DNA of 64,000 nt from a phage: assembly GCA_011939005.1 (NCBI GenBank), contig GCA_011939005.1_4858.1; one strand, written 5' to 3'. Of the stretch, positions 39,613 through 57,653 are shown in pieces. Made by a program: the position numbers and the translations under genes. Numbering within the stretch: position 1 is the stretch's first letter; each line of letters opens with the position of its first letter. The notes under the pieces are model-generated. The model was not told where the DNA came from and searched no databases. It saw nothing but the letters and a program-made list of their open reading frames with translations.

Positions 39613-39619
39613 GGCCTAA

Positions 39620-41398: not shown

Positions 41399-41408
41399 GT
41401 CAAAATCC

Positions 41409-42251: not shown

Positions 42252-42261
42252 CTATACCCTC

Positions 42262-43184: not shown

Positions 43185-43215
43185 AGAAGGGGAGCCGAAG
43201 CTCCCTTTTCTTCAC
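43185..43215 (-). terminator. rho-independent terminator
   Basis: Stem GGGAGC / GCTCCC around a 4-nt loop with flanking T/A runs. Confidence 0.55.
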
Positions 43216-43236
43216 GACTATATCCTCAATCGTCGA

Positions 43237-43455
43237 TTAACAGACCCACACAAGGCCGTTATTCTTTGGGCGGTCTTTAACACCATAGGTTACTTCAACA
43301 TTGTCAATCGTTTTCTCGTCGTCTTTCATTGTATTCATGAAAGCTTTGGCTTCTGCTGCAGACATTTTCAGCAGCAGGTCAATCATGTCGGGCTTACGTT
43401 TGGCTGCGGTTTCAACAACAGGTTTGATTTCAGATTTGGAGAACAGGTTGCGCAT
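43237..43455 (-). CDS. small hypothetical protein (72 aa)
   Basis: ORF with downstream terminator; no motif. Confidence 0.4.
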   Translation of the reverse strand: MRNLFSKSEIKPVVETAAKRKPDMIDLLLKMSAAEAKAFMNTMKDDEKTIDNVEVTYGVKDRPKNNGLVWVC

Positions 43456-43516: not shown

Positions 43517-43963
43517 TTAGTGTACTTCTTTTTCTAAACGCAGGCGATGTGTTGCTAAGGCAACCGCGCGGTTTTCGAATTCAAGACTGAATGGGCTGAT
43601 TTGTGCCATGTATTTCTTTACGACATCGTCAGAGACAACTTGACGACGATAATCACGAATCATTTCAGCAAAGCTGCTAGTAGGAAGTTCGTCGTATTCG
43701 ATTTCCATACCACGTCTATTGATGTAGTACGAAGCAATCATGTCGTTAAACATTACATCGCCGGCTTCACCTAGAGGGAACTCGTCACGTGTGGGTTCCG
43801 TAGTCTGGAACGTGGCTTCTTTGGCGTTGGCGATAATCTCTTCGAAGTCCTCAGTAGTGAATTCGCTAGGGTCTTGTTTGTTGGCCGCCATCACGATTAG
43901 GAAAGAAATCATAATCGGGTTTTTGCTAGCGTATTTAGTAAGTTCGTTATTCAGAATGTACAT
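43517..43963 (-). CDS. hypothetical protein (148 aa)
   Basis: RBS TAAGGAG; promoter-like motif about 70 nt upstream. Confidence 0.5.
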   Translation of the reverse strand: MYILNNELTKYASKNPIMISFLIVMAANKQDPSEFTTEDFEEIIANAKEATFQTTEPTRDEFPLGEAGDVMFNDMIASYYINRRGMEIEYDELPTSSFAEMIRDYRRQVVSDDVVKKYMAQISPFSLEFENRAVALATHRLRLEKEVH

Positions 43964-44023
43964 GTTAAAACTCCTTAAGATAATGGTCGATTAGATAAGA
44001 GTTAATTGTTAACTCTCACCTAA

Positions 44024-44047
44024 GTAATATATATCTGAAAATAATTG
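44024..44047 (-). promoter_or_regulatory. promoter-like motif, copy 1 (minus-strand reading TTTTCAGATATATATTACTT)
   Basis: Shares TTTCAGATA.AT.TTA core with two other intergenic sites; contains -10-like TATATT; lies between a terminator and an RBS/ATG. Confidence 0.4.
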
Positions 44048-44059
44048 TAATCGGACTAG

Positions 44060-44105
44060 GCAAAAAAAAGAAGAAACCCTACTCCCGAAGGAGTAGGGTA
44101 CTGCT
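44060..44105 (-). terminator. rho-independent terminator
   Basis: Stem CCCTACTCC / GGAGTAGGG around CGAA, T-run on minus strand. Confidence 0.65.
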
Positions 44106-44135
44106 TTATTCGCTACCCTTGGGATAAGCGTCATC

Positions 44136-44564
44136 CTAGTTGATGTGGAGTAGAGTGTCCTTCAACGCCTTCTGCTTTTCGTACGACTGACGACACAAGG
44201 AAGTCAGCGTCGAATACGCCGTGCCGGTACGCACCGGTAATTCGCCACCCGCTTCGGTGGGTTCTGTACGAACAAAAGACCCTTCTTCAAACGGCGGCGC
44301 TGCGTGTGGGAAGTTCTTTTTCATGTATCGCTTATACCAGCCGGCCACAACACGGATAACTTTTGGCATCTGAGATCGTCGGTCACGTACTTTCTTCCCG
44401 TGCATCTGATTCATCTCGGAAGACATGCATAGCGAGGTGTACTGACTGAATCCGTCACTGACCCACTTACCGTCCTGGACCAGTAATTTCTTACCAACTG
44501 CTACAGCGATTCTCGGAGAGAAAATGACCGCACCATCTTTACGTTTCTTAGGCTTAAGCATCAT
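44136..44564 (-). CDS. hypothetical protein (142 aa)
   Basis: ORF in minus-strand operon. Confidence 0.45.
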   Translation of the reverse strand: MMLKPKKRKDGAVIFSPRIAVAVGKKLLVQDGKWVSDGFSQYTSLCMSSEMNQMHGKKVRDRRSQMPKVIRVVAGWYKRYMKKNFPHAAPPFEEGSFVRTEPTEAGGELPVRTGTAYSTLTSLCRQSYEKQKALKDTLLHIN

Positions 44565-45357
44565 TATCGTCCTTGTATAGGGAGTCGTAAGGGCTGTTAG
44601 TGTTCATGTTAAATTCTTGTTCTACTTCAGGATGTTGTGAAAGGGAATCCAGAAAGATCGGTTGATATCCACCCTCTGTACGTTTCTTTATCATTTCAAG
44701 GAACGACTTTCCATCAGGAACATCAGGTGTTGATACTAACACCGTGTCAGAGACTGTCGGTAAACGCGCGCAGCCTTCAGTGTTCAGCTGTAGTACCGCG
44801 TCTGGTGCGATGTGTCTGATGTTAGGAAACTTCAACGCGATCTCTTCCATCTTCGCTTTCAATGCATCACCGTTTAGCAGCGGTACAGTCGGCGTCATAT
44901 AAGCGAACTCAACATCTCGATCGGCCACATAATCGCGTAAGTGTTTTCGGGCTGCTACTGTAGCAGAAACTTGCTCTTTATTAGCGTTTATGCCGATGTC
45001 ATTAAAGCGTTTTAGTTTGTCTAAGAAAACGCTAATGTTTTCCTTCGGCATAGGGCGTGGGAACTTACGCAGAAAATAAAGTTGTTCGCGGCCAGGCACC
45101 CAGCTGAGTACCCAGCACGCTTTTAGTGTACGGAAGATATCACGATAGGGTTTCTTCTCTTGAAAGAAATCCCCTTTTAACTGGCAACGGTCTTCAACCA
45201 TTGCCTGGAGTTGGGTGGCTACGTTGGCCATTGCCGACCAGGTGATAAGACGACTACGGTGTTTACCCACGTAGAGACGTCCACCTGTAACACGATGGGA
45301 CTGTGGATGTACTATTTTGACAAACTGTAATCTTTTCTGTTTGCGTGGCTTTAACAT
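44554..45357 (-). CDS. hypothetical protein (about 267 aa)
   Basis: Internal ATG (MLKPRKQ) with GGAG RBS. Confidence 0.5.
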   Translation of the reverse strand: MLKPRKQKRLQFVKIVHPQSHRVTGGRLYVGKHRSRLITWSAMANVATQLQAMVEDRCQLKGDFFQEKKPYRDIFRTLKACWVLSWVPGREQLYFLRKFPRPMPKENISVFLDKLKRFNDIGINANKEQVSATVAARKHLRDYVADRDVEFAYMTPTVPLLNGDALKAKMEEIALKFPNIRHIAPDAVLQLNTEGCARLPTVSDTVLVSTPDVPDGKSFLEMIKKRTEGGYQPIFLDSLSQHPEVEQEFNMNTNSPYDSLYKDDNDA

Positions 45358-45434
45358 TTTAATACTCCTTATGGTCGTAACTAATTTGAAACTGTTGCTT
45401 TTAAGGATTAACGAACAGCCTGCCAACCTCTAAT

Positions 45435-45851
45435 TTACTCATCTTTTACCTCGAAACCGTGACTACGGAAATACTCGATGGCCGCAGAACGTTTACCTAC
45501 ACAGGAGAGTTTTTCATAGAGCAACTCAAGGAGTGTTTTTGGTTCCCAACGTTGCTCTATGAAATAGATTAGGGCACCCAGGTTCCGTCCTAACATCTTG
45601 TCACGCAGATCCGCATCTCGTCGGGCATCTCGTAGTTCGTCTTCGAGTTTTCGGTTCTTAGACTGTTCCTCAGAAAGTAATCGGGTAAGTTTGCGTTGTT
45701 CTTCGAATGCTGCTAACAGGTTCCGTTCCCAAACTTCTTTGGACGCTTTCAACTCAATTTTTGCGATGTCGAGTTCCATTTCCAGCAACTCTACTTGCTG
45801 CCGCAATTGTCTCCTCTCCCGGAACACTCCGAACATGTTTTCTCCTTGCAA
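45435..45851 (-). CDS. hypothetical coiled-coil protein (138 aa)
   Basis: Charged heptad-like region (ELLEMELDIAKIELKASKE...). Confidence 0.45.
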   Translation of the reverse strand: MQGENMFGVFRERRQLRQQVELLEMELDIAKIELKASKEVWERNLLAAFEEQRKLTRLLSEEQSKNRKLEDELRDARRDADLRDKMLGRNLGALIYFIEQRWEPKTLLELLYEKLSCVGKRSAAIEYFRSHGFEVKDE

Positions 45852-45901
45852 TAGCCCTGTCGATTCTGTTACGAATTTCTGCTAACGTTAACGGTTCCCA
45901 C

Positions 45902-46222
45902 TTAAAATCCATTGCGACCTCCTTGTGCGATGTATAACGCACATTTCGCATTGAGTGCTTCGATATTAGCGATAAGTATCATCACCCCGCCGAGTGTTCG
46001 TGGTACGCGAACTGCTTCGTACTCGCGACTTTGTGTACGGACACAATACTCATCGCCCAGAAACGCGATTTCGTAATACTCAGCGCGTAGCGGCACAAAT
46101 GACTGCAGCAACATATCTGCGGTTTGATAGTCGTCAGTCAGTTTCCCGCCCTCGAGTAAATATTTCTGAATCTCGTGAATGGTCAATCCCTGTAATGAAA
46201 TAGACACCGGCTTCTCCTTCAT
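45902..46222 (-). CDS. hypothetical protein (106 aa)
   Basis: ORF; overlaps the 3' end of 46134-46565, so start/extent uncertain. Confidence 0.35.
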   Translation of the reverse strand: MKEKPVSISLQGLTIHEIQKYLLEGGKLTDDYQTADMLLQSFVPLRAEYYEIAFLGDEYCVRTQSREYEAVRVPRTLGGVMILIANIEALNAKCALYIAQGGRNGF

Positions 46223-46565
46223 GGTCGATTAATAACAGTTCAGGTGGCACGTCATAGTCGATGGGTGCGGACTCCTCCATCACGCTATACAATCGCTGAT
46301 AGAACCCTCTGGAGGTTTCCAGGTGCCCTCTTGACACGTGTCTGACATGCGGTGTATTAGGATGATAAAACTCGCCGTAGGTTATCGCTAACTCGACAAA
46401 CCATAGACATAGTTCTCTTGGCCCGTATCGGTTATAAAACTTTATCACCCCAACATCAAACATCTTGTTGTAATGCGGTAAATCGCGATAACGAAGTTTT
46501 AGTGTACCTACACCGATGCGTTGAAGCTCGATAGAGATAGCTACGTCTATGGTTAACATTATCAA
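46134..46565 (-). CDS. hypothetical protein (143 aa)
   Basis: ORF in operon. Confidence 0.45.
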   Translation of the reverse strand: MIMLTIDVAISIELQRIGVGTLKLRYRDLPHYNKMFDVGVIKFYNRYGPRELCLWFVELAITYGEFYHPNTPHVRHVSRGHLETSRGFYQRLYSVMEESAPIDYDVPPELLLIDHEGEAGVYFITGIDHSRDSEIFTRGRETD

Positions 46566-46582
46566 TTACCCTTATCTACCGA

Positions 46583-46966
46583 TCAGTTAAATCCGGTATA
46601 TTCGTTGATGCTACCGTCCTTGATATACACGCCTGGCGTCAGTGCAACTTTACGTGGATCGTTATCAGCACGCTCGCCGTTACACTGAACGTTCCACTCG
46701 TTGACTAAGCGCTCCATTTCGCGCGATGCATATAGGCGCACGTCTGTAACCAGCTCGCTGGCCTCACCCAGATGCGTTGCGTGAAGCACGCTGTTCTCCA
46801 GGCTGTAGAGTTTAGCGAGCAGGATTTTGTTAAGTTCTAACGCTGCTTTTGCAACGAGTGCATACCCTTGACGTTGTCCGTCTGTGCTTGCATTCAGTAA
46901 CGTCAGCTGATGGTTTTTCATGTGTTCGATTGCCAGTGCTAAGTCGGTGTTCATTGGCATTTCCAT
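46583..46966 (-). CDS. hypothetical protein (127 aa)
   Basis: ORF in operon. Confidence 0.45.
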   Translation of the reverse strand: MEMPMNTDLALAIEHMKNHQLTLLNASTDGQRQGYALVAKAALELNKILLAKLYSLENSVLHATHLGEASELVTDVRLYASREMERLVNEWNVQCNGERADNDPRKVALTPGVYIKDGSINEYTGFN

Positions 46967-47286
46967 TAGTATTTATCCTCACGTTTGCTAAACTCTTCTA
47001 ACATCTCGTCGTACACATTCCTGGTATCTTTCAATCCCTGGACGGCCGCGTCATAGACGCGACGCGCAGGAGACGTAAGATGGTAGTGTCCAATACGTTC
47101 GATGATATCGTGGCACCGGCTAATGTGCGTGCAAAGCCTACTCGCGTTAACACCCAGTTTCGCGAGGTCGTGTCTTAACTGCAAGTTATCGGCCTGTACA
47201 CGACGGTTAGCGGCAGCCAATTCTCGGTTTTCTTCGTACAGTTGTTTTTGTCGCTTGTTAATCAGCGCAAGTAACCAGTTCAACAT
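46966..47286 (-). CDS. hypothetical protein (106 aa)
   Basis: ORF; stop/start overlap with neighbour. Confidence 0.45.
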   Translation of the reverse strand: MLNWLLALINKRQKQLYEENRELAAANRRVQADNLQLRHDLAKLGVNASRLCTHISRCHDIIERIGHYHLTSPARRVYDAAVQGLKDTRNVYDEMLEEFSKREDKY

Positions 47287-47296
47287 CCTGTCCCCC

Positions 47297-47815
47297 TTAA
47301 CGCTTCAGATAGATAACGTTATGGTTTTCGTATTTCGCATCTACCCAGGAAAATTCCCAGTAGTGGCGAGGCCGATCAGCAATTTTCATGTCCAGTTCCA
47401 GGATACCATCTAAAGGTACCTGTCTGAGCACCTCTACGATGCTCTGTAGCTCGTTACGAGGCCGGTCGTGGATTAGCTCCAGATAACGCTCCAAACGCGC
47501 AGGCGTCGCTACAGTGCGAATATGGGTACGTTTATCGTCATCGTGTAAGTAGAGGAAGTTTGGTGTGCGTGGAACGTACCAGTGCCAGGTACCGATATAC
47601 GGACCAGGCTGATAATCAGACAGTTGTTTGATTGCATTTAATACCGACGAACAACGGAAATACCAGATGTCCCATTCATCACGAGGGAACAGTTCCGCGA
47701 CTTTCACTTTCAATGGGTCGATACTAATATCCCCCGCAGCCAATACTTCCGGGGCAACGCCCGATTCTAAAACGTTACGTTCCCGTTTGGTATACAGGTT
47801 CATGATAATATTCAC
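47297..47815 (-). CDS. hypothetical protein (172 aa)
   Basis: ORF in operon. Confidence 0.45.
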   Translation of the reverse strand: MNIIMNLYTKRERNVLESGVAPEVLAAGDISIDPLKVKVAELFPRDEWDIWYFRCSSVLNAIKQLSDYQPGPYIGTWHWYVPRTPNFLYLHDDDKRTHIRTVATPARLERYLELIHDRPRNELQSIVEVLRQVPLDGILELDMKIADRPRHYWEFSWVDAKYENHNVIYLKR

Positions 47816-47842
47816 TTAATGCTCCTTAGGATTTAAAATAGC

Positions 47843-48502
47843 TTATTGTTTAGCCCAGTATTCGGCTAACGTTTGGTCGCCTTTACCGATGCGAGCATGA
47901 ATGCCCATTTTACGCAGCCGGCACAGCTCAAGGGACATAGTGTTTAGTTTGATAAGATTTACGTCCGTTGGGCTCTTAAGGCAATCGTCTAATACATTAA
48001 CGAATTTATCCAGCGCCTCTTGCGGAACTTTGCCTTCTGGGTAGTCGTACAGTGTTATCACTTTAAAGGTGTAACCGTCGATATTCGACAACTGTTTTAC
48101 AGCTTCACTGATATCACGATTTATCATCGGCGTCCTATTGAGACGCATTGGTCTGGCAACACGGATTACTCTACCCATTAACCACCCCAAACCACTTACA
48201 GTGGATGCTGCGGGGACATCCAGGTTATTCATCCATAACGACAGTTTGTTCATCTTCGCCGCGGTTTCAGGACTAGGGTTATTGCGCAAGTCACTTAAAG
48301 CCATCGCATACTGGGTTGCCAGTATTTGACTGCCGTAGAAAGCACTGCGGCTTACTGGTAACGCTTCGAAGCGTGCATCGAAATTGTTTGCTTGGTTAAG
48401 TTCTTTAACAGTGCTCAGAATGGCTTCTTGCATTCGAAGTTCACCGTCGCCTTCAAGGTCAGTTGCCTGACGCAATACCGCAATGTGATAGACTTTAGAC
48501 AT
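47843..48502 (-). CDS. hypothetical protein (219 aa)
   Basis: RBS AAGGAG; promoter-like motif about 75 nt upstream. Confidence 0.5.
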   Translation of the reverse strand: MSKVYHIAVLRQATDLEGDGELRMQEAILSTVKELNQANNFDARFEALPVSRSAFYGSQILATQYAMALSDLRNNPSPETAAKMNKLSLWMNNLDVPAASTVSGLGWLMGRVIRVARPMRLNRTPMINRDISEAVKQLSNIDGYTFKVITLYDYPEGKVPQEALDKFVNVLDDCLKSPTDVNLIKLNTMSLELCRLRKMGIHARIGKGDQTLAEYWAKQ

Positions 48503-48568
48503 TTTAAGTGCTCCTTAATACATGACATAAGCTCTGATTGAAACGTAAATTTCAGAGGTTCACTGAGA

Positions 48569-48590
48569 TAACATCTATCTGAAATAAAAT
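48569..48590 (-). promoter_or_regulatory. promoter-like motif, copy 2 (minus-strand TTTCAGATAGATGTTATCTCAGTGAACCT)
   Basis: Near-identical to copy 3 over about 25 nt; TG.TAT extended -10-like element. Confidence 0.45.
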
Positions 48591-48591
48591 A

Positions 48592-48630
48592 AAGGTTAGG
48601 TGGTACCTCTACGAGGTACCACCTAGACAC
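48592..48630 (-). terminator. rho-independent terminator
   Basis: Stem GGTGGTACCTC / GAGGTACCACC with short loop. Confidence 0.6.
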
Positions 48631-50790
48631 TTACTGATATATTTTGATTTGTGGGTAACTATAGCGATAGCTATCGCTATCAACATCCTGACCGACAAAC
48701 AAAATGCCTGTGTTAGAAAACGCCGCGCTGCAATACAATGTTAGCCCGGCGGGGTTAGAAATCGTATTACCGTAGTAGGCGCTGTAGCGCATGTACTTAC
48801 CATCATTCTTCACAAACAGGCTGCCTAACGATCCAACCATTCCGAAGATCAAACAAGCACCATCGGGAGAAACACAGACATTGCCGTTCGGATATCGAGT
48901 GGATGTTACACTATAATCAATTTCCGTGTAATCCAACTCACGTGTCGCCACCCAACCATCGGCGCGTTTTTCGAAGATGTAGTATTTGTGGGTTTCAAGG
49001 ACGGATACCAGTATGACTGAAAAGTTCGAAGATGCTGCCACCTTCAACGTCGAGGCTTCTGCTAACCCTGGGATGTCTAGCTTAGCGGTTTCAACATAGA
49101 GTCCTTCTGAACCTTTAGTTACGATATGGACAGATTTTCCATTGTGCTCTGAAAAAGCAACGCTGGTGCCATCGGCGGTCATCGCGATACTGTCGTACGA
49201 ACCACACAGAGCACCAGAATCGTCGAAGTCAAACGTGAGCGTTTCGTAATTTGAAAACCCATCACTTTTTTGGTAAACAGCTATTTCGCGCGTACCATTC
49301 CCAACGAACAGTGTCTCTCCGTCCGGGGTGAGTTTGACCAACTTACCGTTTACACCGGCGGCCGGGAGATTGGTAATTGCCGTTGGCGTCACTTTGCCCC
49401 ACGCCATGTCGGCACCGTTGTCGTAAACCAGCACTGCGCCCTTCGTTGTTTCTCCAGTTATCGCGGAAGGAATCCCGACGACGAACAAATCGCCTGACTT
49501 GTTTATCGATACCGGACAACGCCCGTCGGTTTCCGCATTTTCACCAGTATCAAAAGTTAGATCCATCAGAATGCTGGCATCGTGTCTATAGCCTGGGAAA
49601 TCTTTTCTATATATAGAAATTGTAGTTGAACGCTTTGCAAGCGGAGTGGTAATCAGAACATTTGCATCGCTACTACAATCCAATTCTGCACCCAACGAAT
49701 AATTATTTTCCGAAGACACGTTCAACGACTGGAATTCATTCGATGGGTATACGTTTCGGCTTATCTTTATCCGATAAGGATCGGACCACTGTCCGACGGT
49801 GTCCTCACCACGATATCTGACGCGTAGCCAATAACTACTACCGTATTGAAGCACGTTATCCGGCAGAGTTATCGTTGTAAGGTTTCGCATATCGAACAAT
49901 GAAGAGAATGGTAGGTTGCTACTAGGACTAAAATCTAACGTATCGCCATAGTTATAATAGAGTTTCCAGTCTGTAGCAATATGCGTTTCCGTGCCTGAAG
50001 TTTCAAACGTCGATGTTTCTATCGTTAAACCTGACGGTCCGTTCACATCGGTTGGGGTTGGCGACACTATCGTCGGTTTTTGGATTGTGGTCTCTATTAC
50101 CGAAAACATGGTTACTGACCAGTCACTATTAACCGTATCTGAGTGAAATTTAGCACGGGCGTAATACGTCTTGTTTCCTACCAGTGTGCCGGGTGGTAAA
50201 GTTAGAAATTTTTTAGCATCCTGAGATTCGAGCAATTGGTAAACCGTAGTGGAAAAATCTTCATTTTCAGACACTTCCCAACTCGTCGCTCTATGAGGTG
50301 TTGTTTGAAACGGCCTTGCAGTGAAGCCATTGAGGATAAAATCCAGATCACTAGCTGAACTAGAACCGTAGTACGGGGAAATCCATGTAGGCGCGTCCAC
50401 TACATTAGAGACCACCTCAATTTCATAGGTTTTGGTGATGCCGTTAGCAGAAACGGTCAGCGTAATAATTTGTCCTAACTGCCGAGGATCTTCGATAAAC
50501 AACGTATAGTTTAAACCTCCATAATGCCTGATTGTTGCTTCAGGGCACGTTACCTGATAAACCGACGGTTCTTCATTACCGGCAATGTAAAAAAGCGTTT
50601 CACTGCCTAGAATGCATTTTTTTTCATTTCCGTCGGAAAAGATTACAGTGAATGATGACTCTGCAGAAGCATCTGACAACGGTATCTTGTATTCGATTCC
50701 ATCCTTACTAAATAAAACAACCCCACCCGTTTTATCCCCAGTAAATTCAGGCAGTTCGTGTAAACGTTTCTTTTTGACTACAGTTGCCAT
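48631..50790 (-). CDS. large structural protein (719 aa) with tandem FN3/Ig-like domains
   Basis: Two FN3-like segments (W.V...E.F...Y...YYARAKF; W.L.Y..G....YWLRVRYRG); Thr/Ser-rich beta-type composition. Confidence 0.55.
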   Translation of the reverse strand: MATVVKKKRLHELPEFTGDKTGGVVLFSKDGIEYKIPLSDASAESSFTVIFSDGNEKKCILGSETLFYIAGNEEPSVYQVTCPEATIRHYGGLNYTLFIEDPRQLGQIITLTVSANGITKTYEIEVVSNVVDAPTWISPYYGSSSASDLDFILNGFTARPFQTTPHRATSWEVSENEDFSTTVYQLLESQDAKKFLTLPPGTLVGNKTYYARAKFHSDTVNSDWSVTMFSVIETTIQKPTIVSPTPTDVNGPSGLTIETSTFETSGTETHIATDWKLYYNYGDTLDFSPSSNLPFSSLFDMRNLTTITLPDNVLQYGSSYWLRVRYRGEDTVGQWSDPYRIKISRNVYPSNEFQSLNVSSENNYSLGAELDCSSDANVLITTPLAKRSTTISIYRKDFPGYRHDASILMDLTFDTGENAETDGRCPVSINKSGDLFVVGIPSAITGETTKGAVLVYDNGADMAWGKVTPTAITNLPAAGVNGKLVKLTPDGETLFVGNGTREIAVYQKSDGFSNYETLTFDFDDSGALCGSYDSIAMTADGTSVAFSEHNGKSVHIVTKGSEGLYVETAKLDIPGLAEASTLKVAASSNFSVILVSVLETHKYYIFEKRADGWVATRELDYTEIDYSVTSTRYPNGNVCVSPDGACLIFGMVGSLGSLFVKNDGKYMRYSAYYGNTISNPAGLTLYCSAAFSNTGILFVGQDVDSDSYRYSYPQIKIYQ

Positions 50791-51323
50791 TATACATCGT
50801 CTCCGTAGGTTAACACTGCATCATCACCGATGCATAAAACAGTTTCTTCATCCAGACTTGCCACAGCTTCTTTTTCATTAAACGCCGTGAATGTAAAGGT
50901 AGCCGTCCAAGCCGGTGAATCGTCACTCATCGCTGCAATCAATGGCTCGTTTGTTGGTGTAATAACCCCTGTCGAGATGTCTTCACGTGACAAGTTTAAA
51001 CCGCATAACTGGTTTACAACTGTCGCTAAATCAGCATAGGTGTCGCCGGGAGCTACAGTAACCAGTATCGGTCCTTGCGGGTCGATAATATTATTAGCGA
51101 CTAGACGGTCGTAATAGACGGTAACCTTCTTGCCGTTAGGTTTACGTGCTTTCGCAATGTACGCTTGCGAGGTACGGGCACTTTCAACACCTAAGTCGAT
51201 TGGCCCTACTCCGCTTATCACAATCTCGTCAGGCGATAATGACAAGCCGTTATCGTGATTAATCAACGCCACGACAAGCGCTTTCGACGAGATTGTTAGG
51301 TCGGGCTGATAGCGGTCTGCCAT
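50790..51323 (-). CDS. short N-domain family protein (about 177 aa), possible adaptor
   Basis: Internal ATG with GGAGG RBS; LINHDN...VTVYYDRL motif of the fiber N-domain family; stop overlaps start of the 719-aa gene. Confidence 0.5.
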   Translation of the reverse strand: MADRYQPDLTISSKALVVALINHDNGLSLSPDEIVISGVGPIDLGVESARTSQAYIAKARKPNGKKVTVYYDRLVANNIIDPQGPILVTVAPGDTYADLATVVNQLCGLNLSREDISTGVITPTNEPLIAAMSDDSPAWTATFTFTAFNEKEAVASLDEETVLCIGDDAVLTYGDDV

Positions 51324-51334
51324 TAACGCCTCCA

Positions 51335-51388
51335 GAAACAAAAAAAATAAGCTACCACACATATGATCGTGTGGTAGCCTACTCGTAC
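51335..51388 (-). terminator. rho-independent terminator
   Basis: Stem GCTACCACAC / GTGTGGTAGC followed by T-run on minus strand. Confidence 0.6.
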
Positions 51389-51392
51389 GCTG

Positions 51393-51788
51393 TTAGTGCA
51401 GTGTAGCACTGTGCACAACAGTTAACCCGCGACGTTTGATCTCATCCGCGATGGATTGCAACAGCTTATCGTAACCCACCTTTACAAATTCAGGTAAGCC
51501 ACGGTCAACCATCTCCATCTCGGTGATTTCTTCACGGAAAACTTGACAACAGCCTTCTAAATAACGTTTAGCTTCTGTCACGTCATCGACATACCGCGCA
51601 TAACTCAGGGCGATCGCGTAACCTTCTGCAATAAACGCATACTTCATGAAGATTTCTGGGTCGAGTTCTTCAACTGCTACGTCTAGACGTGAAGCGGTCT
51701 GACGTACAGAGTTACGTAATGATTCAGAAAACAGTGTAGTCGTAACCATATCCTGATTAGGAACGGTTTTAGGCATAATCAATTTCAC
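51393..51788 (-). CDS. hypothetical protein (131 aa)
   Basis: ORF in operon. Confidence 0.45.
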   Translation of the reverse strand: MKLIMPKTVPNQDMVTTTLFSESLRNSVRQTASRLDVAVEELDPEIFMKYAFIAEGYAIALSYARYVDDVTEAKRYLEGCCQVFREEITEMEMVDRGLPEFVKVGYDKLLQSIADEIKRRGLTVVHSATLH

Positions 51789-51799
51789 GAGGACTCTCC

Positions 51800-52183
51800 T
51801 TACGATAACTCGCCCATGTAAATTACTTCATAACCGAACCACTCACCGATTTCAATAAGGTAAGAAACTAGCAAGTGGCGATGACAGAATTTCCCCGGTG
51901 GGCAATAGCACATTAGTACGACCTCGCCCTGGCGGAGAATCTCTATCAACTTATCAGTGTCTTCATCAAACAACCGACTAAGTTTCTGCAGGTAGCGTTT
52001 GGTATACGCAGCTTCTGCGTCGGGGCCTTTATCAGACTTCTTGTAGTCCATCAGAAAGTCCCAGTCGGGTGCCAAATATTTCAACCCCGACTTAACTGTT
52101 ATATCCAGCTTTGGCAAATTCCGTTTTTCAGCTATCCGCCACTTCGCCAGTTGGAGCGTCCACAGCTTTACTTGCTTTGGCAT
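51800..52183 (-). CDS. DUF488 (YeaO-like) domain protein
   Basis: C-terminal LMCYCPPGKFCHRHLL matches the DUF488 signature. Confidence 0.5.
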   Translation of the reverse strand: MPKQVKLWTLQLAKWRIAEKRNLPKLDITVKSGLKYLAPDWDFLMDYKKSDKGPDAEAAYTKRYLQKLSRLFDEDTDKLIEILRQGEVVLMCYCPPGKFCHRHLLVSYLIEIGEWFGYEVIYMGELS

Positions 52184-53135
52184 TTTTCGCTATCTCTTTT
52201 TCTTTCTCCTGAAGCGCTTTAAAATGTGGCGCATACGCGCACCACTCTTCCGCGGTAAACGATGTGATACATAACCGGTTAGTATCTTCACTTACCGTAA
52301 AGGTCGTGTGGTTTCTTTCCGGGTCCTTAAAGTTAGCAAAAGCCGGTACGCCCAAACCCATAGCAGAAATAGCACTACCGAGAGCAGAACACCATACCCG
52401 TCTGTAAGCATCGTTGATTTTAATCTCCCATCCCACTGACGGTGTAATACCAAGACTACGATAATTCTGCGACTTTGCCGACGGATGGGCATAAACGATG
52501 AGCACGTTATTCTCACGGTCTATCGCGAATTCGTAGTTGTTGTTGTTACTGACCTGTACCAACCTACGAATATCTTCCGGCAACTCCTGCCACATTTCCA
52601 GTTTCTCTTTATCCCACGCAGGTGTTAGAAGCGGTGGAACGCGACCGGCATGATCTTGGAAATACATCAATTCGCTATAGAGGTTCTTTAAGCGAGCGTA
52701 CTCGTCTAATGTCCAATCTCCCAGCTCTAGACTATTCTCCAACGCATCTAGCTTATTCCAACCAACAACTGCATAGGCGTGGTGCTGTTTGCGCGTAATA
52801 CCACACATCAGTTTAGCGAGACCGTTAACAACATTGCCCTGCTGAACCAGAGGCGACCAGCCGTTAGCATATCCAGCGCTAACGACAGGCTGGAAGTTCT
52901 CTTCCCCGAGCACCGCCCATGTAACATGTTCGGTTTGTGCATGGTGTCTATCCATCAACCGTTCAACAATGGCCACGCTACAAAGAATTTCCATGAAGTT
53001 CGCGTTACCTCCATTCCACATGGAGAAATACGCAGGACGGACATGTCGTGCTTCATTGGCCGGTGCTTTGCATAGCAGCTGATACATTATCCAGGTGGAA
53101 TCCAACCCTGCTGAAAACGAAACGAGCTTCGCCAT
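52128..53135 (-). CDS. putative PP-loop (adenine nucleotide alpha-hydrolase) superfamily protein (335 aa)
   Basis: N-terminal SFSAGLDST resembles the SGGxDS PP-loop; assignment tentative. Confidence 0.3.
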   Translation of the reverse strand: MAKLVSFSAGLDSTWIMYQLLCKAPANEARHVRPAYFSMWNGGNANFMEILCSVAIVERLMDRHHAQTEHVTWAVLGEENFQPVVSAGYANGWSPLVQQGNVVNGLAKLMCGITRKQHHAYAVVGWNKLDALENSLELGDWTLDEYARLKNLYSELMYFQDHAGRVPPLLTPAWDKEKLEMWQELPEDIRRLVQVSNNNNYEFAIDRENNVLIVYAHPSAKSQNYRSLGITPSVGWEIKINDAYRRVWCSALGSAISAMGLGVPAFANFKDPERNHTTFTVSEDTNRLCITSFTAEEWCAYAPHFKALQEKEKEIAKNAKASKAVDAPTGEVADS

Positions 53136-53143
53136 CCTTTACC

Positions 53144-53476
53144 TCACTTTTGTTTCTGTTTTTCTTCACGCATCAACTTAGCGTTCAGGTCGACCATGTA
53201 ACCCGGTTTTTCCATCACCTGCACTTCTTCCCAATTGCTCCCCACTGCCATTTTGAGGGTTCCTTGACGTACCGCGATTTCTTTTGCAGTGTCACGGCAG
53301 ACCTCTAACGCTTCGTCCAAATCGTTAAAGGTTGTCTTCTGTGGTCCGTTAAAGGTTTTAGCGCATTCCAGGAATACACGTTCGTAAACATCCTGGTCGA
53401 GTAAGAGTGGTTTGTCCGCAGCGTGGACAACCATAGGCGCAACGAGTGCGCCTAACAGAACTAAAACTTTCTTCAT
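53144..53476 (-). CDS. secreted/periplasmic small protein (110 aa)
   Basis: Classic Sec signal peptide MKKVLVLLGALVAPMVVHA with A-x-A cleavage site. Confidence 0.55.
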   Translation of the reverse strand: MKKVLVLLGALVAPMVVHAADKPLLLDQDVYERVFLECAKTFNGPQKTTFNDLDEALEVCRDTAKEIAVRQGTLKMAVGSNWEEVQVMEKPGYMVDLNAKLMREEKQKQK

Positions 53477-53605
53477 TGTTTCACCGTGTGTATAAGTTGA
53501 TAACGTGGGGTTTCTTCTACCACAACATCAAAGGATGGAATACATGGGGTTAAAATCAAATCCATGTAACCTAGGGTCAATAGCGCACTTGCGGCGCTAT
53601 TAGCA

Positions 53606-55366
53606 TTACGCGTTCTCTGTCCAAGCACGCCCACGCAGCGTTTCACCGCGTATGTCATATTGCTTATATTTCGAAGAGTCGTAAGACGCAGGTAGGAAGA
53701 TCTGATGAACAATATCCGCCAGTCGACGAGCACCAAGGTTCTCTACAGCATTGGCTTCCATTGTTTTCTCAGCGATGAACGTATAGGTGTCCATGTCGTA
53801 CTGCGTTTCCACCCCTTCGGTTTTCAACAACTTAATCATGCCGTGGAACTCACTGTTATCCAACTTACAGATAGCAATCAGTGCCTCGGTATCCAGCGAA
53901 GACATTTTCGCTCTTAACGGAAAACGTCCCTGGAGTTCTGCCATGAGTTTAGAAACAGGCGCTTGAGCAAACGACCCAGCAGCGACAAAAAGCACATTGG
54001 TTGTGTCAACGCCATGATAAATACCCCCTTCAACCATTTTCAACAAGCTACGCTGCACACCACTACGGGATACACGTGCGGTGTGTTGCGTGTCAGTCTC
54101 GATAAGTTTGTCAAACTCATCCAAGAACACCACCGCAAAGTTCTCAACGAAATCATGCCCATTACAGTTGGGTAGTTTCTTGAGGTCTTTGCGGCTGACT
54201 GTTTCTTTTTCTGGTGCAACTGTTTCAGGTATCTCGTAATGCCAGAGCCGTTCATCGGCGTATTTGGTAAATTCTGGAGAACCTTCGAACACGTCATCCC
54301 ACCAACGACACCACTTCTCAGGATCTTCCAAACGAGACAACAAGCGAATAGTAAACGCTGTAGCGTTGATCGGGAGCCAATTAATGCCCACCGGCTCGAC
54401 GTCCTCGTCGTCGCCGTTAAACGTGTCGAACAAATCGTAGAAATCTGAGCCATCGGCACACGAGAGTGGCAGGTTATTTGACATCAGCGCTTGACCGGCA
54501 TCAACGTATAAGTCAATCTGTTCGCCTAAAGCCATCAGCGACATAAACTCACCCATATACCCAATCGCGCCCGGTATATCACCATCCATTAACTTATCGA
54601 CTTGACTTTCAAGTTCTACACTATTCAACAGTTCAGAAATTGACGAGACACCGAGCAGACTCCTTGCGATTTCCGACATCTTATCTATCCATTCCTGCAC
54701 AGTACGGCCACCGAGCGTAACAGAATAGATATCGAAGTCTTCGTAGGTTAAATTGTGTTGACGGCAATAGCCAACCATAAACGCGCGAAGACAATAGATG
54801 TCTTGGTATTCTTCGTACAACTCCTTCGGATCGAGTATACCCTGACGCCGTAATAGTTCGGTGTGGTCACGTTTAGCTTGATACCGCAGCTGGCGCTCAG
54901 CTGCGCGCTCGTCTAGTTCGCGCTCAACTTCCTTACGGGATTCACGCTCCCACTCTTCACGAGTAAGACGATTACCGTCTACTTCCGTCTCGACACGTCG
55001 TTTGGTACGCAGCTCGATATACCAGTCGGGCAATTCGACAGAACGCGCTAAGTCGGCTAAGTCCTTGCCGATTGATGTAACTTCCCGGCCTACGTAGCCT
55101 GATTCTGTAAACGCGGTCATGTCGAGTTCCAGCACAGGTAAACCGAATTTAGTTTTCAGTACCCGCATCAACGCTGTTTTACCCGTGCCTGTTGGACCTT
55201 CTATTAAAAGGTTCTGTTTGTGGACCGACATACGGTCCACTACGTTGAGTTTGTTGGCACGATATCGATTACGTAGCGCAATCGCCAGCATTTTCTTTGC
55301 CTGCGTTTGTCCGTATACGTAACGGTCGAATAGCGCCACTATCTCAACCGGCGTGAGGTTTTCCAT
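53606..55366 (-). CDS. hslU: HslU-like AAA+ ATPase/unfoldase (586 aa)
   Basis: N-terminus GQ..AK..LAIALRNRYR....nLLieGPTGTGKT (Walker A) then TESGYVG; C-terminus FLDEFDK...GVQRSLLK.VEG...AAGSF...LQGRFP...GARRL, colinear with HslU including an inserted domain; RBS AGAGGA. Confidence 0.8.
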   Translation of the reverse strand: MENLTPVEIVALFDRYVYGQTQAKKMLAIALRNRYRANKLNVVDRMSVHKQNLLIEGPTGTGKTALMRVLKTKFGLPVLELDMTAFTESGYVGREVTSIGKDLADLARSVELPDWYIELRTKRRVETEVDGNRLTREEWERESRKEVERELDERAAERQLRYQAKRDHTELLRRQGILDPKELYEEYQDIYCLRAFMVGYCRQHNLTYEDFDIYSVTLGGRTVQEWIDKMSEIARSLLGVSSISELLNSVELESQVDKLMDGDIPGAIGYMGEFMSLMALGEQIDLYVDAGQALMSNNLPLSCADGSDFYDLFDTFNGDDEDVEPVGINWLPINATAFTIRLLSRLEDPEKWCRWWDDVFEGSPEFTKYADERLWHYEIPETVAPEKETVSRKDLKKLPNCNGHDFVENFAVVFLDEFDKLIETDTQHTARVSRSGVQRSLLKMVEGGIYHGVDTTNVLFVAAGSFAQAPVSKLMAELQGRFPLRAKMSSLDTEALIAICKLDNSEFHGMIKLLKTEGVETQYDMDTYTFIAEKTMEANAVENLGARRLADIVHQIFLPASYDSSKYKQYDIRGETLRGRAWTENA

Positions 55367-55575
55367 TAATTTTCCTCTTTCAATATCTCAGCAACTGCTT
55401 TACGGCACGCATTCACCGCGTCAGGATAAGTGGTACTGTTCGGGTCTACGCGGTCAATGCACATTCTGAACGTACTGGTTGCGGTCTCGCGACGTTCTGC
55501 AGTGCGGGTACTGGTGCTGATGGCGATATAAATACAAAACAACACAGCAGCCACGATCGGCCAACGTAGATTCAT
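55366..55575 (-). CDS. small membrane protein (69 aa)
   Basis: Single hydrophobic helix (IVAAVLFCIYIAI); stop overlaps hslU-like start. Confidence 0.45.
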   Translation of the reverse strand: MNLRWPIVAAVLFCIYIAISTSTRTAERRETATSTFRMCIDRVDPNSTTYPDAVNACRKAVAEILKEEN

Positions 55576-56273
55576 CAGTAATCCCCCGTTGCCCCTATCG
55601 CAGTCGCTACTTTACTGACAACCTCGTCAACCGGAAGCACCACCTCGTCTTTCTTGCTCACAATCTCTGGTACTTCTTTGACATGTTCAACGGTCACGTC
55701 AAACTTCCGAGTATAACCAACGAGCAGGTTGGCCATTTCTGCACGACTAACGAACTGTTGTTCTTCCGACAGATGTAACGACGTATCAAGAAGTCCAGAA
55801 TGCATGAAGTTTTCAATGAGTTGGTCTTCTTCCGCTTTGAAGTCGTACCGCTCGTTCGGGGCGGCCACAAACGCATAACCGAAATATTTCCCTTCTTCCT
55901 GTTCAGGACGTAGCGATTTAACTAACTCCTCAGCGTGTTCACAGAAGTCCGCCAAAGTATAATCGTCGAGTGTGGCAACTGCGGTTTCTGTTACAATTTC
56001 ACCGGTGTCGAGTTCAGTGAGGTGCATCACCCAAAGATGCCATGGTCGCGGTTGGTCGAACAGCCCACCGACTAACATATCTGTGGCGATAGCACGAATA
56101 CGAGGACTTGCCGTAAAGTGAAAACCACGGCCCGCGTACGGCCCGAGGCGACGAATCGAACTGCCTATAAACGTGATACGATTCAGAGCGTTTTCAGCGA
56201 CGGTGTGTGCCGTACGTTCTGTGGCAACTTTCGGGTTATACTTTTTGTTACGGGGTTTCTTTTGCTTAGCCAT
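55575..56273 (-). CDS. hypothetical protein (232 aa)
   Basis: ORF with start/stop overlaps to both neighbours (coupled). Confidence 0.5.
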   Translation of the reverse strand: MAKQKKPRNKKYNPKVATERTAHTVAENALNRITFIGSSIRRLGPYAGRGFHFTASPRIRAIATDMLVGGLFDQPRPWHLWVMHLTELDTGEIVTETAVATLDDYTLADFCEHAEELVKSLRPEQEEGKYFGYAFVAAPNERYDFKAEEDQLIENFMHSGLLDTSLHLSEEQQFVSRAEMANLLVGYTRKFDVTVEHVKEVPEIVSKKDEVVLPVDEVVSKVATAIGATGDY

Positions 56274-56743
56274 TAGTTAAAAACCTTTTTGCAAACTGTG
56301 TGGAATACTTTACGAATTTCACGAAGGGATTGTTCGGTGTGCAGATAACGATACGTTATCTTCCACGCGTTATACGTGTTTTTCAGGGTGATTTCGCTGA
56401 GGTCATAAACGAAATCATCATCAGGGTACATGAGTCTCGCCATGGATAAATCCCACAATGGTGGAATATCCGCTTTCATTAACTCAGCAACTAGCTCATG
56501 CGCTTTGTGCTCAAAGCCAACACCAAGAACAAACACTACATGGAACTCCCCTGGCGAGTTCTTTTTAGAATATGGTCCGTGTCCATGACATGACCACATT
56601 GTCGTCGCGCCGGGGTAACGGCAAATAACTTCACACGCATCCCGTACCCCACGCTCGACCCAACCGTTTACGAGCGCTTCGGATGCCCGTAGTTTAAACC
56701 GATCCAAAACTTTCAGATCCACGCCGCCGTATAAAACTGGCAT
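56273..56743 (-). CDS. hypothetical protein (156 aa)
   Basis: ORF in coupled operon. Confidence 0.5.
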   Translation of the reverse strand: MPVLYGGVDLKVLDRFKLRASEALVNGWVERGVRDACEVICRYPGATTMWSCHGHGPYSKKNSPGEFHVVFVLGVGFEHKAHELVAELMKADIPPLWDLSMARLMYPDDDFVYDLSEITLKNTYNAWKITYRYLHTEQSLREIRKVFHTVCKKVFN

Positions 56744-56771
56744 CTTTAATTCTCCTTAAGGGTGTCTTCAT

Positions 56772-57224
56772 TTAATGGTTGTGTTCTGTAAAAATTGCGA
56801 GTGCGAGCCAGTGCTCCATCACTCTTTCCATCACATCTGGGTCAGGTCGATAGATGAGTCTAAACGTCCAGCTTGGATAACAGAGATTCGCATTGCCTTC
56901 TTGACGCAGCCAAGTAAAGTTTAACTGAAAACGTTTCCCGTATTCGTGCGGCTGCCATCCTTCTAATAAATGATTAATGTCTTTAAGACCAGCCTCGGTT
57001 GCCACAAATGTTAAGCTGTGGTGTCTACGTGTACGAAGCTTGTCTCCGTCTTTGCGAACTTCTCCCGTGAATGCCCAAACGGTTGCGATATTCGGCCATT
57101 CGCTAAATGCCCTAATGATTGCACGCGTTTTAACATCGACTGGTTTTTCAGCATCCAGCGCCCGGATTGTGCGCTGCTTGTACACGGCCAATTCCGCATC
57201 ATTGACGACTGAACATTGAAACAC
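56772..57224 (-). CDS. hypothetical protein (150 aa)
   Basis: ORF in operon. Confidence 0.45.
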   Translation of the reverse strand: MFQCSVVNDAELAVYKQRTIRALDAEKPVDVKTRAIIRAFSEWPNIATVWAFTGEVRKDGDKLRTRRHHSLTFVATEAGLKDINHLLEGWQPHEYGKRFQLNFTWLRQEGNANLCYPSWTFRLIYRPDPDVMERVMEHWLALAIFTEHNH

Positions 57225-57249
57225 GGTATATCCCTCAGAGGGTTAAAAA

Positions 57250-57292
57250 TAAAAAGAGCCCTACCTAACCGAAGTTAGGTAGGGGACTACTT
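57250..57292 (-). terminator. rho-independent terminator
   Basis: Stem CCCTACCTAAC / GTTAGGTAGGG around CGAA, T-run on minus strand. Confidence 0.65.
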
Positions 57293-57596
57293 AAGCGACA
57301 GCGCGTTTGCGTTTATCGACGACTTTCTTGGTTGCTTTCGCTGCCTTCTTACTGGCAGGGATAGTATCAACCGGGGTGTCGGCTACCAAGGCACGCTCTA
57401 CACCGTCTGCACGTACGACGCGCAGATTCTTCGCCTGTGGTAAGCCTTTGAAAGTGATGGTCAAACCCGCGCGGAGACCTTGATACAGAAACCCTTGCAG
57501 GTTCAGTTTCTTGGCGGTTGCAGTGTTCTCACAACCTTTCTCCACGTACAGCAGAGTCATACCTGCACGTTTAACAATTGTGTATTGTTTAGCCAT
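57291..57596 (-). CDS. small basic protein (101 aa), possibly nucleic-acid binding
   Basis: Lys-rich C-terminal tail (KKAAKATKKVVDKRKRAVA); promoter-like motif about 45 nt upstream. Confidence 0.45.
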   Translation of the reverse strand: MAKQYTIVKRAGMTLLYVEKGCENTATAKKLNLQGFLYQGLRAGLTITFKGLPQAKNLRVVRADGVERALVADTPVDTIPASKKAAKATKKVVDKRKRAVA

Positions 57597-57633
57597 CTAC
57601 TTTTTTCCTTTCTTTACAGTTAGGTTCAGTAAA

Positions 57634-57653
57634 ATAACATCTATCTGAAAAGT
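57634..57653 (-). promoter_or_regulatory. promoter-like motif, copy 3 (minus-strand TTTTCAGATAGATGTTATTTTACTGAACCT)
   Basis: Conserved with copy 2; TG.TATTTT extended -10-like element. Confidence 0.45.

What the first reader, a model, noticed from the sequence alone, without database searches (positions are those of the whole stretch)
44024..57653. Recurrent promoter-like motif TTTCAGATA(G/T)AT(G/A)TTA upstream of minus-strand genes
Three intergenic sites (about 44024-44047, 48569-48590, 57634-57653) share this core, followed by an extended -10-like TG.TAT element, each 45-75 nt upstream of an RBS/ATG. Two sit immediately downstream of a terminator hairpin. This suggests a phage-specific promoter class defining early or middle transcription units.
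Basis: seen in the sequence. Interest (0 to 1): 0.5.

Follow-up and report, generated by a model that had tools for sequence, protein, structure and literature searches.

The report
Jumbo-phage early (virion RNA polymerase) promoters
The three repeated sequences are real and are best read as early promoters used by the RNA polymerase that SPN3US/phiKZ-type giant phages carry in their virions, a promoter class already described for related phages, so the finding is correct but ordinary.

Summary
Three minus-strand intergenic sites (44015-44040, 48559-48584, 57625-57650) share TTTCAGATA(G/T)AT(A/G)TTA(C/T)-N6-GA. The window is an SPN3US-like (Seoulvirus, phiKZ-related) jumbo phage. A weight matrix built from 20 SPN3US sites lying outside the window-equivalent region finds exactly these three sites in the window (43, 32 and 28 bits; best score in 100 simulated windows 17.9). 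SPN3US has 23 strong sites. All face the same way as the downstream gene, and 21 are fully intergenic in a genome that is 94% coding (P about 2e-23). The core and a G six bases downstream persist in orthologous spacers of phages from two genera whose flanks have diverged. The motif is nearly identical to published predicted early promoters of phages N1M2 and OBP. It has the same layout as the mapped early promoters of phiKZ, 201phi2-1 and AR9: an AT-rich core, six bases, then a G start. Best reading: early promoters for the injected virion RNA polymerase, each starting a terminator-bounded unit of small genes of unknown function. No start sites have been mapped. Novelty and interest are low.

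The parts
44015..44040 (-). Promoter site 1, positions about -23 to +3: TTTCAGATATATATTAC-TTAGGT-G(+1, 44017)AG
   Evidence: matrix score 43.0 bits; conserved with its terminator and leader in SPN3US, Asesino and pEa_SNUABM_29
48559..48584 (-). Promoter site 2: TTTCAGATAGATGTTAT-CTCAGT-G(+1, 48561)AA
   Evidence: 31.6 bits; orthologues in pEa_SNUABM_29 and STsAS keep AGATAGATtTTATCTacGTGAA
57625..57650 (-). Promoter site 3: TTTCAGATAGATGTTAT-TTTACT-G(+1, 57627)AA
   Evidence: 27.7 bits; the 18-nt core is identical in STsAS, pEa_SNUABM_29 and Asesino although the flanks differ
48597..48625 (-). Terminator-like hairpin (13 bp stem, T-rich tail) that ends the upstream tail-protein gene, immediately 5' of site 2
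   Evidence: relatives have a different hairpin sequence at the same place
44076..44099 (-). Terminator-like hairpin (10 bp, TTCG loop, T run). It ends the unit started at site 2 and lies 5' of site 1
   Evidence: conserved in SPN3US, Asesino and pEa_SNUABM_29
57259..57284 (-). Terminator-like hairpin (11 bp) just after the 101-aa ORF 57291-57596. It closes a predicted single-gene unit started at site 3
43190..43205 (-). Terminator-like hairpin (6 bp, 5 G-C pairs, T run) after ORFs 43517-43963 and 43237-43455. It closes the unit started at site 1, ahead of the virion-protein paralogue array
44136..48502 (-). Genes of predicted unit 2: nine small ORFs (106-290 aa). None has a Pfam family, and the PHROG hits are all 'unknown function'
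43997..44017 (-). Predicted 5'-terminal RNA hairpin of the site 1 transcript (GAGAGTTAA-CAA-TTAACTCTT) that starts at the predicted +1
   Evidence: the stem is kept with a different sequence in Asesino and pEa_SNUABM_29
43981..43992 (-). Leader box AATCGACCATTA just upstream of the Shine-Dalgarno sequence of ORF 43517-43963. It belongs to the site 1 leader, not to the promoter

Best explanation
The three sites are early promoters of an SPN3US-like (phiKZ-related, nucleus-forming) jumbo phage. They are recognised by the phage's own multisubunit virion RNA polymerase, which is injected with the DNA, and not by the host sigma-70 enzyme. The recognised element runs from about -23 to +3: TTTC at -23 to -20, AGATA(G/T)AT at -19 to -12, a variable base at -11, TTA(T/C) at -10 to -7, six loosely constrained bases, then G at +1 followed by A. 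Predicted starts are G44017, G48561 and G57627 on the minus strand, which gives 5' leaders of 54, 59 and 31 nt. Each promoter opens a short unit of small non-virion genes of unknown function that ends at a hairpin terminator: 57627 to 57259 (1 gene), 48561 to 44076 (9 ORFs) and 44017 to 43190 (2 ORFs). Shown here: the sequence recurrence, its orientation and intergenic bias, its evolutionary conservation, and its identity with the published consensus. Inferred by analogy: which polymerase is used, the early timing, and the exact start nucleotide.
For: The window is 94-96% identical to SPN3US-group jumbo phages. SPN3US carries seven annotated split RNAP beta-type genes, and its virion RNAP is documented. 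In SPN3US the motif occurs at 23 strong sites, all on the strand of the downstream gene. Of these, 21 are fully intergenic although only 6.4% of the genome is intergenic (P = 1.6e-23), and predicted leaders are 26-261 nt (median about 53 nt). One site lies 26 nt before an RNAP beta gene pair. The independent matrix finds exactly the three window sites. An unbiased 8-mer count of upstream regions ranks the motif first after the ribosome-binding site and terminator words. Footprints: the site 3 core is identical in STsAS, pEa_SNUABM_29 and Asesino, the G at N6+1 is kept while the N6 bases and flanks differ, and sites 1 and 2 behave likewise. Published consensus sequences: N1M2 TTTCARRYAKATATTATYWAAGTGWA, OBP TTTYARRYAKATATTATYWWADTG, 201phi2-1 TATATTACDWHDGTG and phiKZ TATATTAC. 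AR9 early promoters are AAATATATATTAT-(6N)-G(+1), and the phiKZ and phiR1-37 starts lie 6 nt after the element. The phiKZ early motif also has a T-rich part upstream of -19. The same motif recurs, strand-consistent within each contig, in many 205-267 kb viral contigs. Eleven of 23 SPN3US sites have an RNA hairpin beginning at the predicted +1 to +3, against 2.7 +/- 1.6 at random positions. All downstream genes are small and of unknown function, as reported for early genes of 201phi2-1.
Against: There are no transcript 5' ends, timing data or polymerase-dependence data for this phage or for SPN3US in anything I could read. The OBP and N1M2 consensus sequences are themselves bioinformatic predictions. 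The window contains no RNAP gene, so the polymerase argument rests on near-identical relatives. Sites 2 and 3 carry G at -11 where most sites have A, and AR9 vRNAP is reported to be intolerant of some single substitutions, so they could be weak or used at a different time. Site 3 is missing from phiEaH2. In 201phi2-1 not every gene with the expected timing had the expected promoter class.
Confidence: 0.85

Rival explanations
1. The sites are middle-class or dual-use promoters read by the non-virion phage RNA polymerase, or by both phage polymerases, rather than purely early vRNAP promoters. Sites 2 and 3, with the -11 G variant, are the likeliest candidates.
For: Timing is not measured. Sites 2 and 3 differ from the majority at -11, and the G is kept at site 3 across two genera. 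phiKZ gene 054 has both an early and a middle promoter. In 201phi2-1 the assignment of genes to classes was not clean.
Against: phiKZ middle promoters show only a weak AT-rich or TACT motif near -22 to -24, late ones show only TATG at the start, and neither class can be predicted bioinformatically. This motif carries about 33 bits and matches the early consensus position by position. The -11 base is G in SPN3US-type phages and T in STsAS and pEa_SNUABM_29 at orthologous site 2, so it looks tolerant rather than class-defining.
Confidence: 0.07
2. The sites are host sigma-70 promoters. The TATTAT or TGTTAT at -12 to -7 would act as a -10 hexamer, so early genes would be read by host RNA polymerase.
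Against: The sigma-70 scan calls none of the three sites on the minus strand, and sigma-70-like sites are not enriched in the region (18 found against 23.5 expected). No -35 hexamer is present. The essential -11 A is G in sites 2 and 3 and T in orthologues. Conservation spans 26 nt, far beyond a -10 hexamer. The same motif is used by phages of Pseudomonas, Klebsiella, Erwinia and Salmonella. Related phages develop in the presence of rifampicin.
Confidence: 0.03
3. The motif is the operator of a dimeric DNA-binding regulator, or another non-promoter DNA or RNA signal such as a processing site. The cue is its partial dyad symmetry, AGATA-N5-TATCT.
For: The core is quasi-palindromic, and reverse-strand mirror hits appear at many sites. 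SPN3US encodes an HTH protein next to one site.
Against: Site 1 and its five paralogues (AGATATATATTAC) lack the dyad, yet they are the best conserved. The motif is strongly asymmetric, with an upstream TTTC and A-rich tract and a downstream N6-GAG, and it always faces the gene. Its position 26-135 nt before starts, directly after terminators, and the hairpins beginning at the predicted +1 all fit initiation rather than binding alone.
Confidence: 0.03
4. The sites are non-functional repeats, that is, intergenic cassettes copied by recombination or a chance recurrence.
For: Site 1 belongs to a roughly 110-nt cassette (terminator, motif and leader) present in 4-6 copies per genome.
Against: Sites 2 and 3 share only the motif with the other sites. 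The motif is kept where flanks have diverged beyond alignment (Asesino). Chance is excluded by the simulations and by the intergenic and orientation statistics.
Confidence: 0.02

Closest known systems
Predicted early promoters of Pseudomonas phage OBP and Klebsiella phage N1M2 (consensus TTTCARRYAKATATTATYWAAGTGWA; PMC7058600, Table 2)
   Same: The match is almost base for base across TTTCA-G-A-T-A-K-AT-TTAT-Y-W-AGTG-A. The count per genome is similar (31 in N1M2, 23 in SPN3US). In both, sites lie before operons of unknown-function genes and before an RNAP beta gene.
   Different: Window sites 2 and 3 have G at the position that is A in that consensus. Window site 1 has TTAC, as in phiKZ and 201phi2-1, rather than TTAT. 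Those promoters are also only predicted, not mapped.
Experimentally mapped early (vRNAP) promoters of phiKZ and 201phi2-1 (TATATTAC core, T-rich part upstream of -19, start 6 nt after the core)
   Same: Site 1 contains TATATTAC exactly. All three sites have a G six bases after the core and TTT at about -21 to -23. They sit in intergenic regions before small early-type genes.
   Different: The AGATA(G/T)AT part upstream of the core is specific to the OBP/N1M2/SPN3US branch. No start-site data exist for the SPN3US group.
Bacillus phage AR9 early promoters, AAATATATATTAT-(6N)-G(+1)
   Same: They share the ATATATTAT core, the six-base spacer and the G start. Use by vRNAP without new protein synthesis was shown for AR9.
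   Different: AR9 has uracil DNA, forms no nucleus and is only distantly related. Its upstream half is A/T only, without the TTTCAG part.
Bacterial sigma-70 -10 element and extended -10 promoters
   Same: Both have an AT-rich hexamer resembling TATAAT at about -12 to -7, which suggests a similar melting region.
   Different: There is no -35 element, no conserved TG at -15/-14, and the -11 A is not required. Specificity is much longer and stricter, and no sigma homologue is known for vRNAP.
Phage N4 virion RNA polymerase promoters (DNA hairpins)
   Same: Both are used by an injected virion polymerase for early genes.
   Different: The N4 enzyme is single-subunit and needs a short hairpin with a 3-nt loop. 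Here the dyad is partial and is absent from site 1.

Membership tests
phiKZ-type jumbo-phage early (vRNAP) promoters | Highly conserved AT-rich core of about 10 nt (TATATTAC or ATATTAT) centred near -10 | tested here: met
   Site 1 has TATATTAC. Sites 2 and 3 have GATGTTAT, one substitution. Published consensus sequences are, and the review description is.
phiKZ-type jumbo-phage early (vRNAP) promoters | Conserved start nucleotide (G) 6 nt downstream of the core | tested here: met
   At the sequence level, G is present 6 nt after TTAY in all three sites, in 22 of the 23 SPN3US sites plus the weak 24th, and in all orthologues although the six spacer bases vary. Whether transcription actually starts there was not testable.
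phiKZ-type jumbo-phage early (vRNAP) promoters | T-rich or TTTCA element around -20 and an A-rich tract further upstream | tested here: met
   TTTC lies at -23 to -20 in all three sites. The matrix consensus is TcnAAaaaaTttcAGATA.... Compare phiKZ and OBP/N1M2. The A-rich tract is weak in the three window sites.
phiKZ-type jumbo-phage early (vRNAP) promoters | Some 20-40 copies per genome, intergenic, co-oriented with downstream operons of mostly non-virion genes of unknown function | tested here: met
   SPN3US has 23 sites, 21 intergenic, all co-oriented. Window downstream ORFs have no Pfam hits and only unknown-function PHROGs. SPN3US orthologues are annotated as hypothetical, not virion, proteins.
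phiKZ-type jumbo-phage early (vRNAP) promoters | The genome encodes a virion-packaged multisubunit RNA polymerase | tested here: met
   This was met in the near-identical relative SPN3US: seven split RNAP beta-type CDSs, and vRNAP subunits in the virion according to the literature. No RNAP gene lies inside the window itself.
phiKZ-type jumbo-phage early (vRNAP) promoters | Transcripts appear immediately after infection, independent of phage protein synthesis and of host RNAP | not testable with these tools
   This needs infected-cell RNA with and without chloramphenicol and rifampicin. No such data for the SPN3US group were found.
Bacterial sigma-70 promoters (including the extended -10 type) | A -35 and a -10 hexamer with a 16-18 nt spacer, or TGn immediately upstream of a good -10 with A at -11 | tested here: not met
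   The scan calls no minus-strand site at the three positions. The -11 base is G in sites 2 and 3 and T in orthologues. The TG is not conserved and not at -15/-14.
phiKZ middle or late (nvRNAP) promoters | Only a weak AT-rich or TACT signal near -22 to -24 (middle), or only TATG at the start (late); no long conserved element | tested here: not met
   The motif is a 26-nt element of about 33 bits, and the start context is GTGA or CTGA, not TATG.
N4-type vRNAP hairpin promoters | A short perfect inverted repeat forming a 5-7 bp hairpin with a 3-nt loop at the promoter | tested here: not met
   Only a partial dyad, AGATA-N5-TATCT, is present in sites 2 and 3, and none is present in site 1.

The most novel reading that the evidence does not exclude
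Beyond being ordinary early promoters, the sites may be one half of a two-layer early-expression signal. About half of the SPN3US sites, and window site 1, encode a transcript that begins with a hairpin exactly at +1. That transcript also carries a conserved AATCGACYATTA box just before the ribosome-binding site. These could form an early-mRNA-specific leader that controls stability, export from the early infection vesicle, or translation. The A/G/T variation at -11 (G in window sites 2 and 3, kept across genera at site 3) could set promoter strength or timing subclasses for the virion polymerase.
Probability: 0.15. Interest if true: 0.5.

Novelty: already known. Interest (0 to 1): 0.2.

Why it matters
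The practical value is annotation. The motif marks where the injected virion polymerase most likely starts, so it splits this part of the genome into three early units (12 small genes of unknown function). These genes are candidates for host-takeover or anti-defence functions in a phage group used as a genetic model and for biocontrol. It also gives a compact, portable element (about 26 nt) for reporter or engineering work in SPN3US-type phages. It adds no new kind of regulation. The literature already states that all phiKZ-related phages have such AT-rich early promoters, and an almost identical consensus is published for OBP and N1M2. I could not read the primary paper (Lavysh et al. 2016) that reportedly shows the motif for each phage. 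If SPN3US was not covered there, the correct label would be 'new member of a known kind'.

Tried and rejected
1. The shuffle statistic for the 16-mer with 3 mismatches and for looser patterns does not separate signal from chance. I replaced it with an independently trained weight matrix.

2. My first iterative matrix became contaminated by reverse-strand mirror hits, because the core is quasi-palindromic. I rebuilt it from plus-strand sites only.

3. Ceyssens 2014 and Lavysh 2016 could not be opened by DOI or PMC id, so the phiKZ logo and any SPN3US logo were not seen directly. The consensus strings come from PMC7058600, PMC5312081 and reviews.

4. A full-text search for the motif strings themselves returned only unrelated primer sequences.

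5. Searches for SPN3US transcription or time-course data found no start-site or timing data.

6. A Pfam scan of ten downstream ORFs found nothing, and PHROGs gave only unknown-function families.

7. I considered and rejected four alternatives: sigma-70 promoters, an N4-like hairpin promoter, a regulator operator, and a passive repeat. Reasons are given under the rival explanations.

8. One tblastn call failed on a frame error and was repeated.

Full report
**Observation.** Reading the minus strand at the three places shows the following.
- Site 1: TTTTCAGATATATATTACTTAGGTGAGAG
- Site 2: ATTTCAGATAGATGTTATCTCAGTGAACC
- Site 3: TTTTCAGATAGATGTTATTTTACTGAACC

Sites 2 and 1 follow strong terminator-like hairpins at 48625-48597 and 44099-44076. 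The 16-mer ends 62, 67 and 39 nt before the ATGs at 43963, 48502 and 57596. The 'TG.TAT' element is simply the TGTTAT inside the motif of sites 2 and 3, and site 1 lacks it.

**What the window is.** The 43-49 kb stretch is 94-96% identical to Escherichia phage EC001, Salmonella phage SPN3US and about 50 relatives of roughly 240 kb. These belong to genus Seoulvirus, a phiKZ-related group. The window's minus strand corresponds to the SPN3US plus strand, at roughly SPN3US 95-159 kb. I fetched the whole SPN3US genome with its annotation. It carries seven split RNA-polymerase beta-type genes. The literature documents a virion-packaged multisubunit polymerase for SPN3US and all phiKZ relatives.

**Genome-wide behaviour.** In SPN3US a relaxed search finds a clear family of 23 strong sites plus one weak one. 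All lie on the plus strand and face the next gene. Twenty-one are wholly intergenic although only 6.4% of the genome is intergenic (binomial P = 1.6e-23). Predicted leaders are 26-261 nt (median about 53 nt). One site lies 26 nt before an RNAP beta gene pair. An unbiased count of 8-mers in the 100 nt upstream of all genes ranks words of this motif first after ribosome-binding-site and terminator words.

**Independent test on the window.** I built a 42-column matrix (about 33 bits) from the 20 SPN3US sites that lie outside the window-equivalent region. It scores the three window sites 43.0, 31.6 and 27.7 bits, and the next best hit scores 11.1. One hundred simulated windows gave a maximum of 6.6 +/- 3.1, with a highest value of 17.9. 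The window therefore holds exactly three sites.

**Evolutionary footprints.**
- Upstream of the orthologue of ORF 57291-57596, the 18-nt core TTTCAGATAGATGTTATT is identical in STsAS (78% identity overall), in pEa_SNUABM_29 (70%) and in the Erskinevirus Asesino, whose flanks no longer align.
- In those same orthologues the six following bases differ, but the G after them is kept. phiEaH2 lacks the site.
- Site 1 is part of a conserved cassette of terminator, motif and leader that is present in Asesino and pEa_SNUABM_29 and repeated 4-6 times per genome.
- A scan of IMG/VR finds the motif many times in numerous 205-267 kb contigs, always on one strand within a contig. Of the 80 listed stretches, 52 come from contigs of at least 184 kb.

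**Comparison with what is known.** A paper on Klebsiella phage N1M2 tabulates predicted early promoters (PMC7058600):
- N1M2: TBYAWWWWWTTTCARRYAKATATTATYWAAGTGWA
- OBP: BSHAWWWWWTTTYARRYAKATATTATYWWADTG
- 201phi2-1: ...TTTRARR_BTATATTACDWHDGTG
- phiKZ: TATATTAC

The window motif is the same element. Experimentally mapped AR9 early promoters are AAATATATATTAT-(6N)-G(+1), and the phiKZ and phiR1-37 starts also lie 6 nt after the element. AR9 early transcripts do not need new protein synthesis (PMC5312081). dRNA-seq of phiKZ describes a '-10-like' box plus a T-rich part upstream of -19. The 201phi2-1 early promoters mirror phiKZ and precede hypothetical genes. Reviews state that such a motif can be found bioinformatically in every RNAP-encoding jumbo phage and that it proved to be the early promoter wherever tested. 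Early transcription is carried out by injected vRNAP inside the early infection vesicle and is rifampicin-insensitive.

**Anatomy and proposed mechanism.** Numbering from the conserved G as +1:
- TTTC at -23 to -20
- AGATA(G/T)AT at -19 to -12
- a variable base at -11
- TTA(T/C) at -10 to -7
- six weakly constrained bases
- G(+1) followed by A

Predicted starts are 44017, 48561 and 57627, which gives leaders of 54, 59 and 31 nt. Terminator-like hairpins bound three units:
- 57627 to 57259, with one 101-aa ORF
- 48561 to 44076, with nine ORFs
- 44017 to 43190, with two ORFs, after which the array of virion-protein paralogues begins

None of the ten ORFs tested has a Pfam family, and PHROG hits are all of unknown function. 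This is typical of jumbo-phage early genes. Recurrence, bias, conservation and consensus identity are shown here. The polymerase, the timing and the exact start nucleotide are inferred by analogy. One piece of indirect support for the start position: 11 of 23 SPN3US sites, and window site 1, encode an RNA hairpin that begins at +1 to +3 with differing stem sequences, against 2.7 +/- 1.6 at random positions.

**Rivals.**
- Host sigma-70 promoter: unlikely. There is no -35 element, the scan does not call the sites, the key -11 A is G or T in conserved sites, and specificity spans 26 nt across phages of four host genera.
- Middle or late class: does not fit the weak or minimal motifs described for those classes. 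Dual or delayed use of the -11 G variants cannot be excluded.
- Regulator operator: suggested by the partial dyad AGATA-N5-TATCT. However, the dyad is absent from site 1, and the motif is asymmetric and always faces the gene.
- Passive repeat or chance: excluded by the footprints and the statistics.

**Novelty and limits.** The class is established and an almost identical consensus is in print, so I rate this as already known. The caveat is that I could not open the primary paper said to show the motif for each phage, and I found no published site list for SPN3US-type phages. No transcript data exist for this group in what I could search, so the promoter function remains a strong inference. 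Interest is low for the promoter itself. The leader features and the -11 variation are the only parts that might repay further study.

Noticed in passing
window 48631-50790 (-), junction at about 48594: The 719-aa ORF sits where SPN3US has its 1005-aa 'tail protein'. It has no Pfam family. Against 50,697 phage records it matches only at residues 1-39, to the Asesino tail fibre. DNA homology to all relatives resumes at 48594, between this gene's terminator and promoter site 2. This looks like a swapped receptor-binding module whose recombination junction sits at the terminator/promoter boundary.
   Followed up: partly
window 43981-43992 (-); SPN3US 4477, 56335, 57146, 65455, 94280, 114030, 167592, 223318, 224197: A second conserved intergenic element, AATCGACYATTA, lies 3-5 nt before the Shine-Dalgarno AAGGAG. 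It is found in leaders of site-1-type promoters and also at three places without the promoter motif. Its function is unknown; it could be a translation or mRNA-level signal.
   Followed up: partly
window 43997-44017 (-); SPN3US sites 4427, 56294, 65413, 92540, 94239, 113986, 161919, 165687, 191602, 223277: Predicted transcripts with long leaders begin with a hairpin starting at +1 to +3. Stem sequences differ between sites and between orthologues. The count is 11 of 23 sites against 2.7 +/- 1.6 at random positions. These may be 5'-end stabilising structures.
   Followed up: partly
SPN3US 7390/7408, 15614/15632, 191602/191620 (loci L002, L004): The promoter core is quasi-palindromic (AGATA-N5-TATCT). 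At three divergent intergenic regions the reverse-strand mirror of the motif is followed, 27-118 nt later, by a minus-strand gene of unknown function. Bidirectional use of one element is possible.
   Followed up: no
window 47843-48502 (-): The 219-aa ORF joins two PHROG families (17751 at residues 1-108 and 33168 at residues 119-219). These are two separate genes in SPN3US (109971-110303 and 110326-110631). This is either a gene fusion or loss of a stop codon in this phage.
   Followed up: no
window 43059-43237 (-), against SPN3US 114807-115238: SPN3US has a third gene (143 aa) after the two genes of unit 1. The window appears to lack it and goes from ORF 43237-43455 through a terminator (43205-43190) straight to the first virion-protein paralogue at 43059.
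   Followed up: no
window 30000-43059 (-): A long array of similar-sized ORFs (265-332 aa and about 496 aa) corresponds to the SPN3US run of paralogous 'virion structural proteins' directly downstream of unit 1.
   Followed up: no
window 50790-51362 (-): The 190-aa ORF just upstream of the novel tail gene carries DUF7941 (E = 3.6e-17). A 17-bp-stem terminator-like hairpin at 51384-51345 overlaps its start.
   Followed up: no
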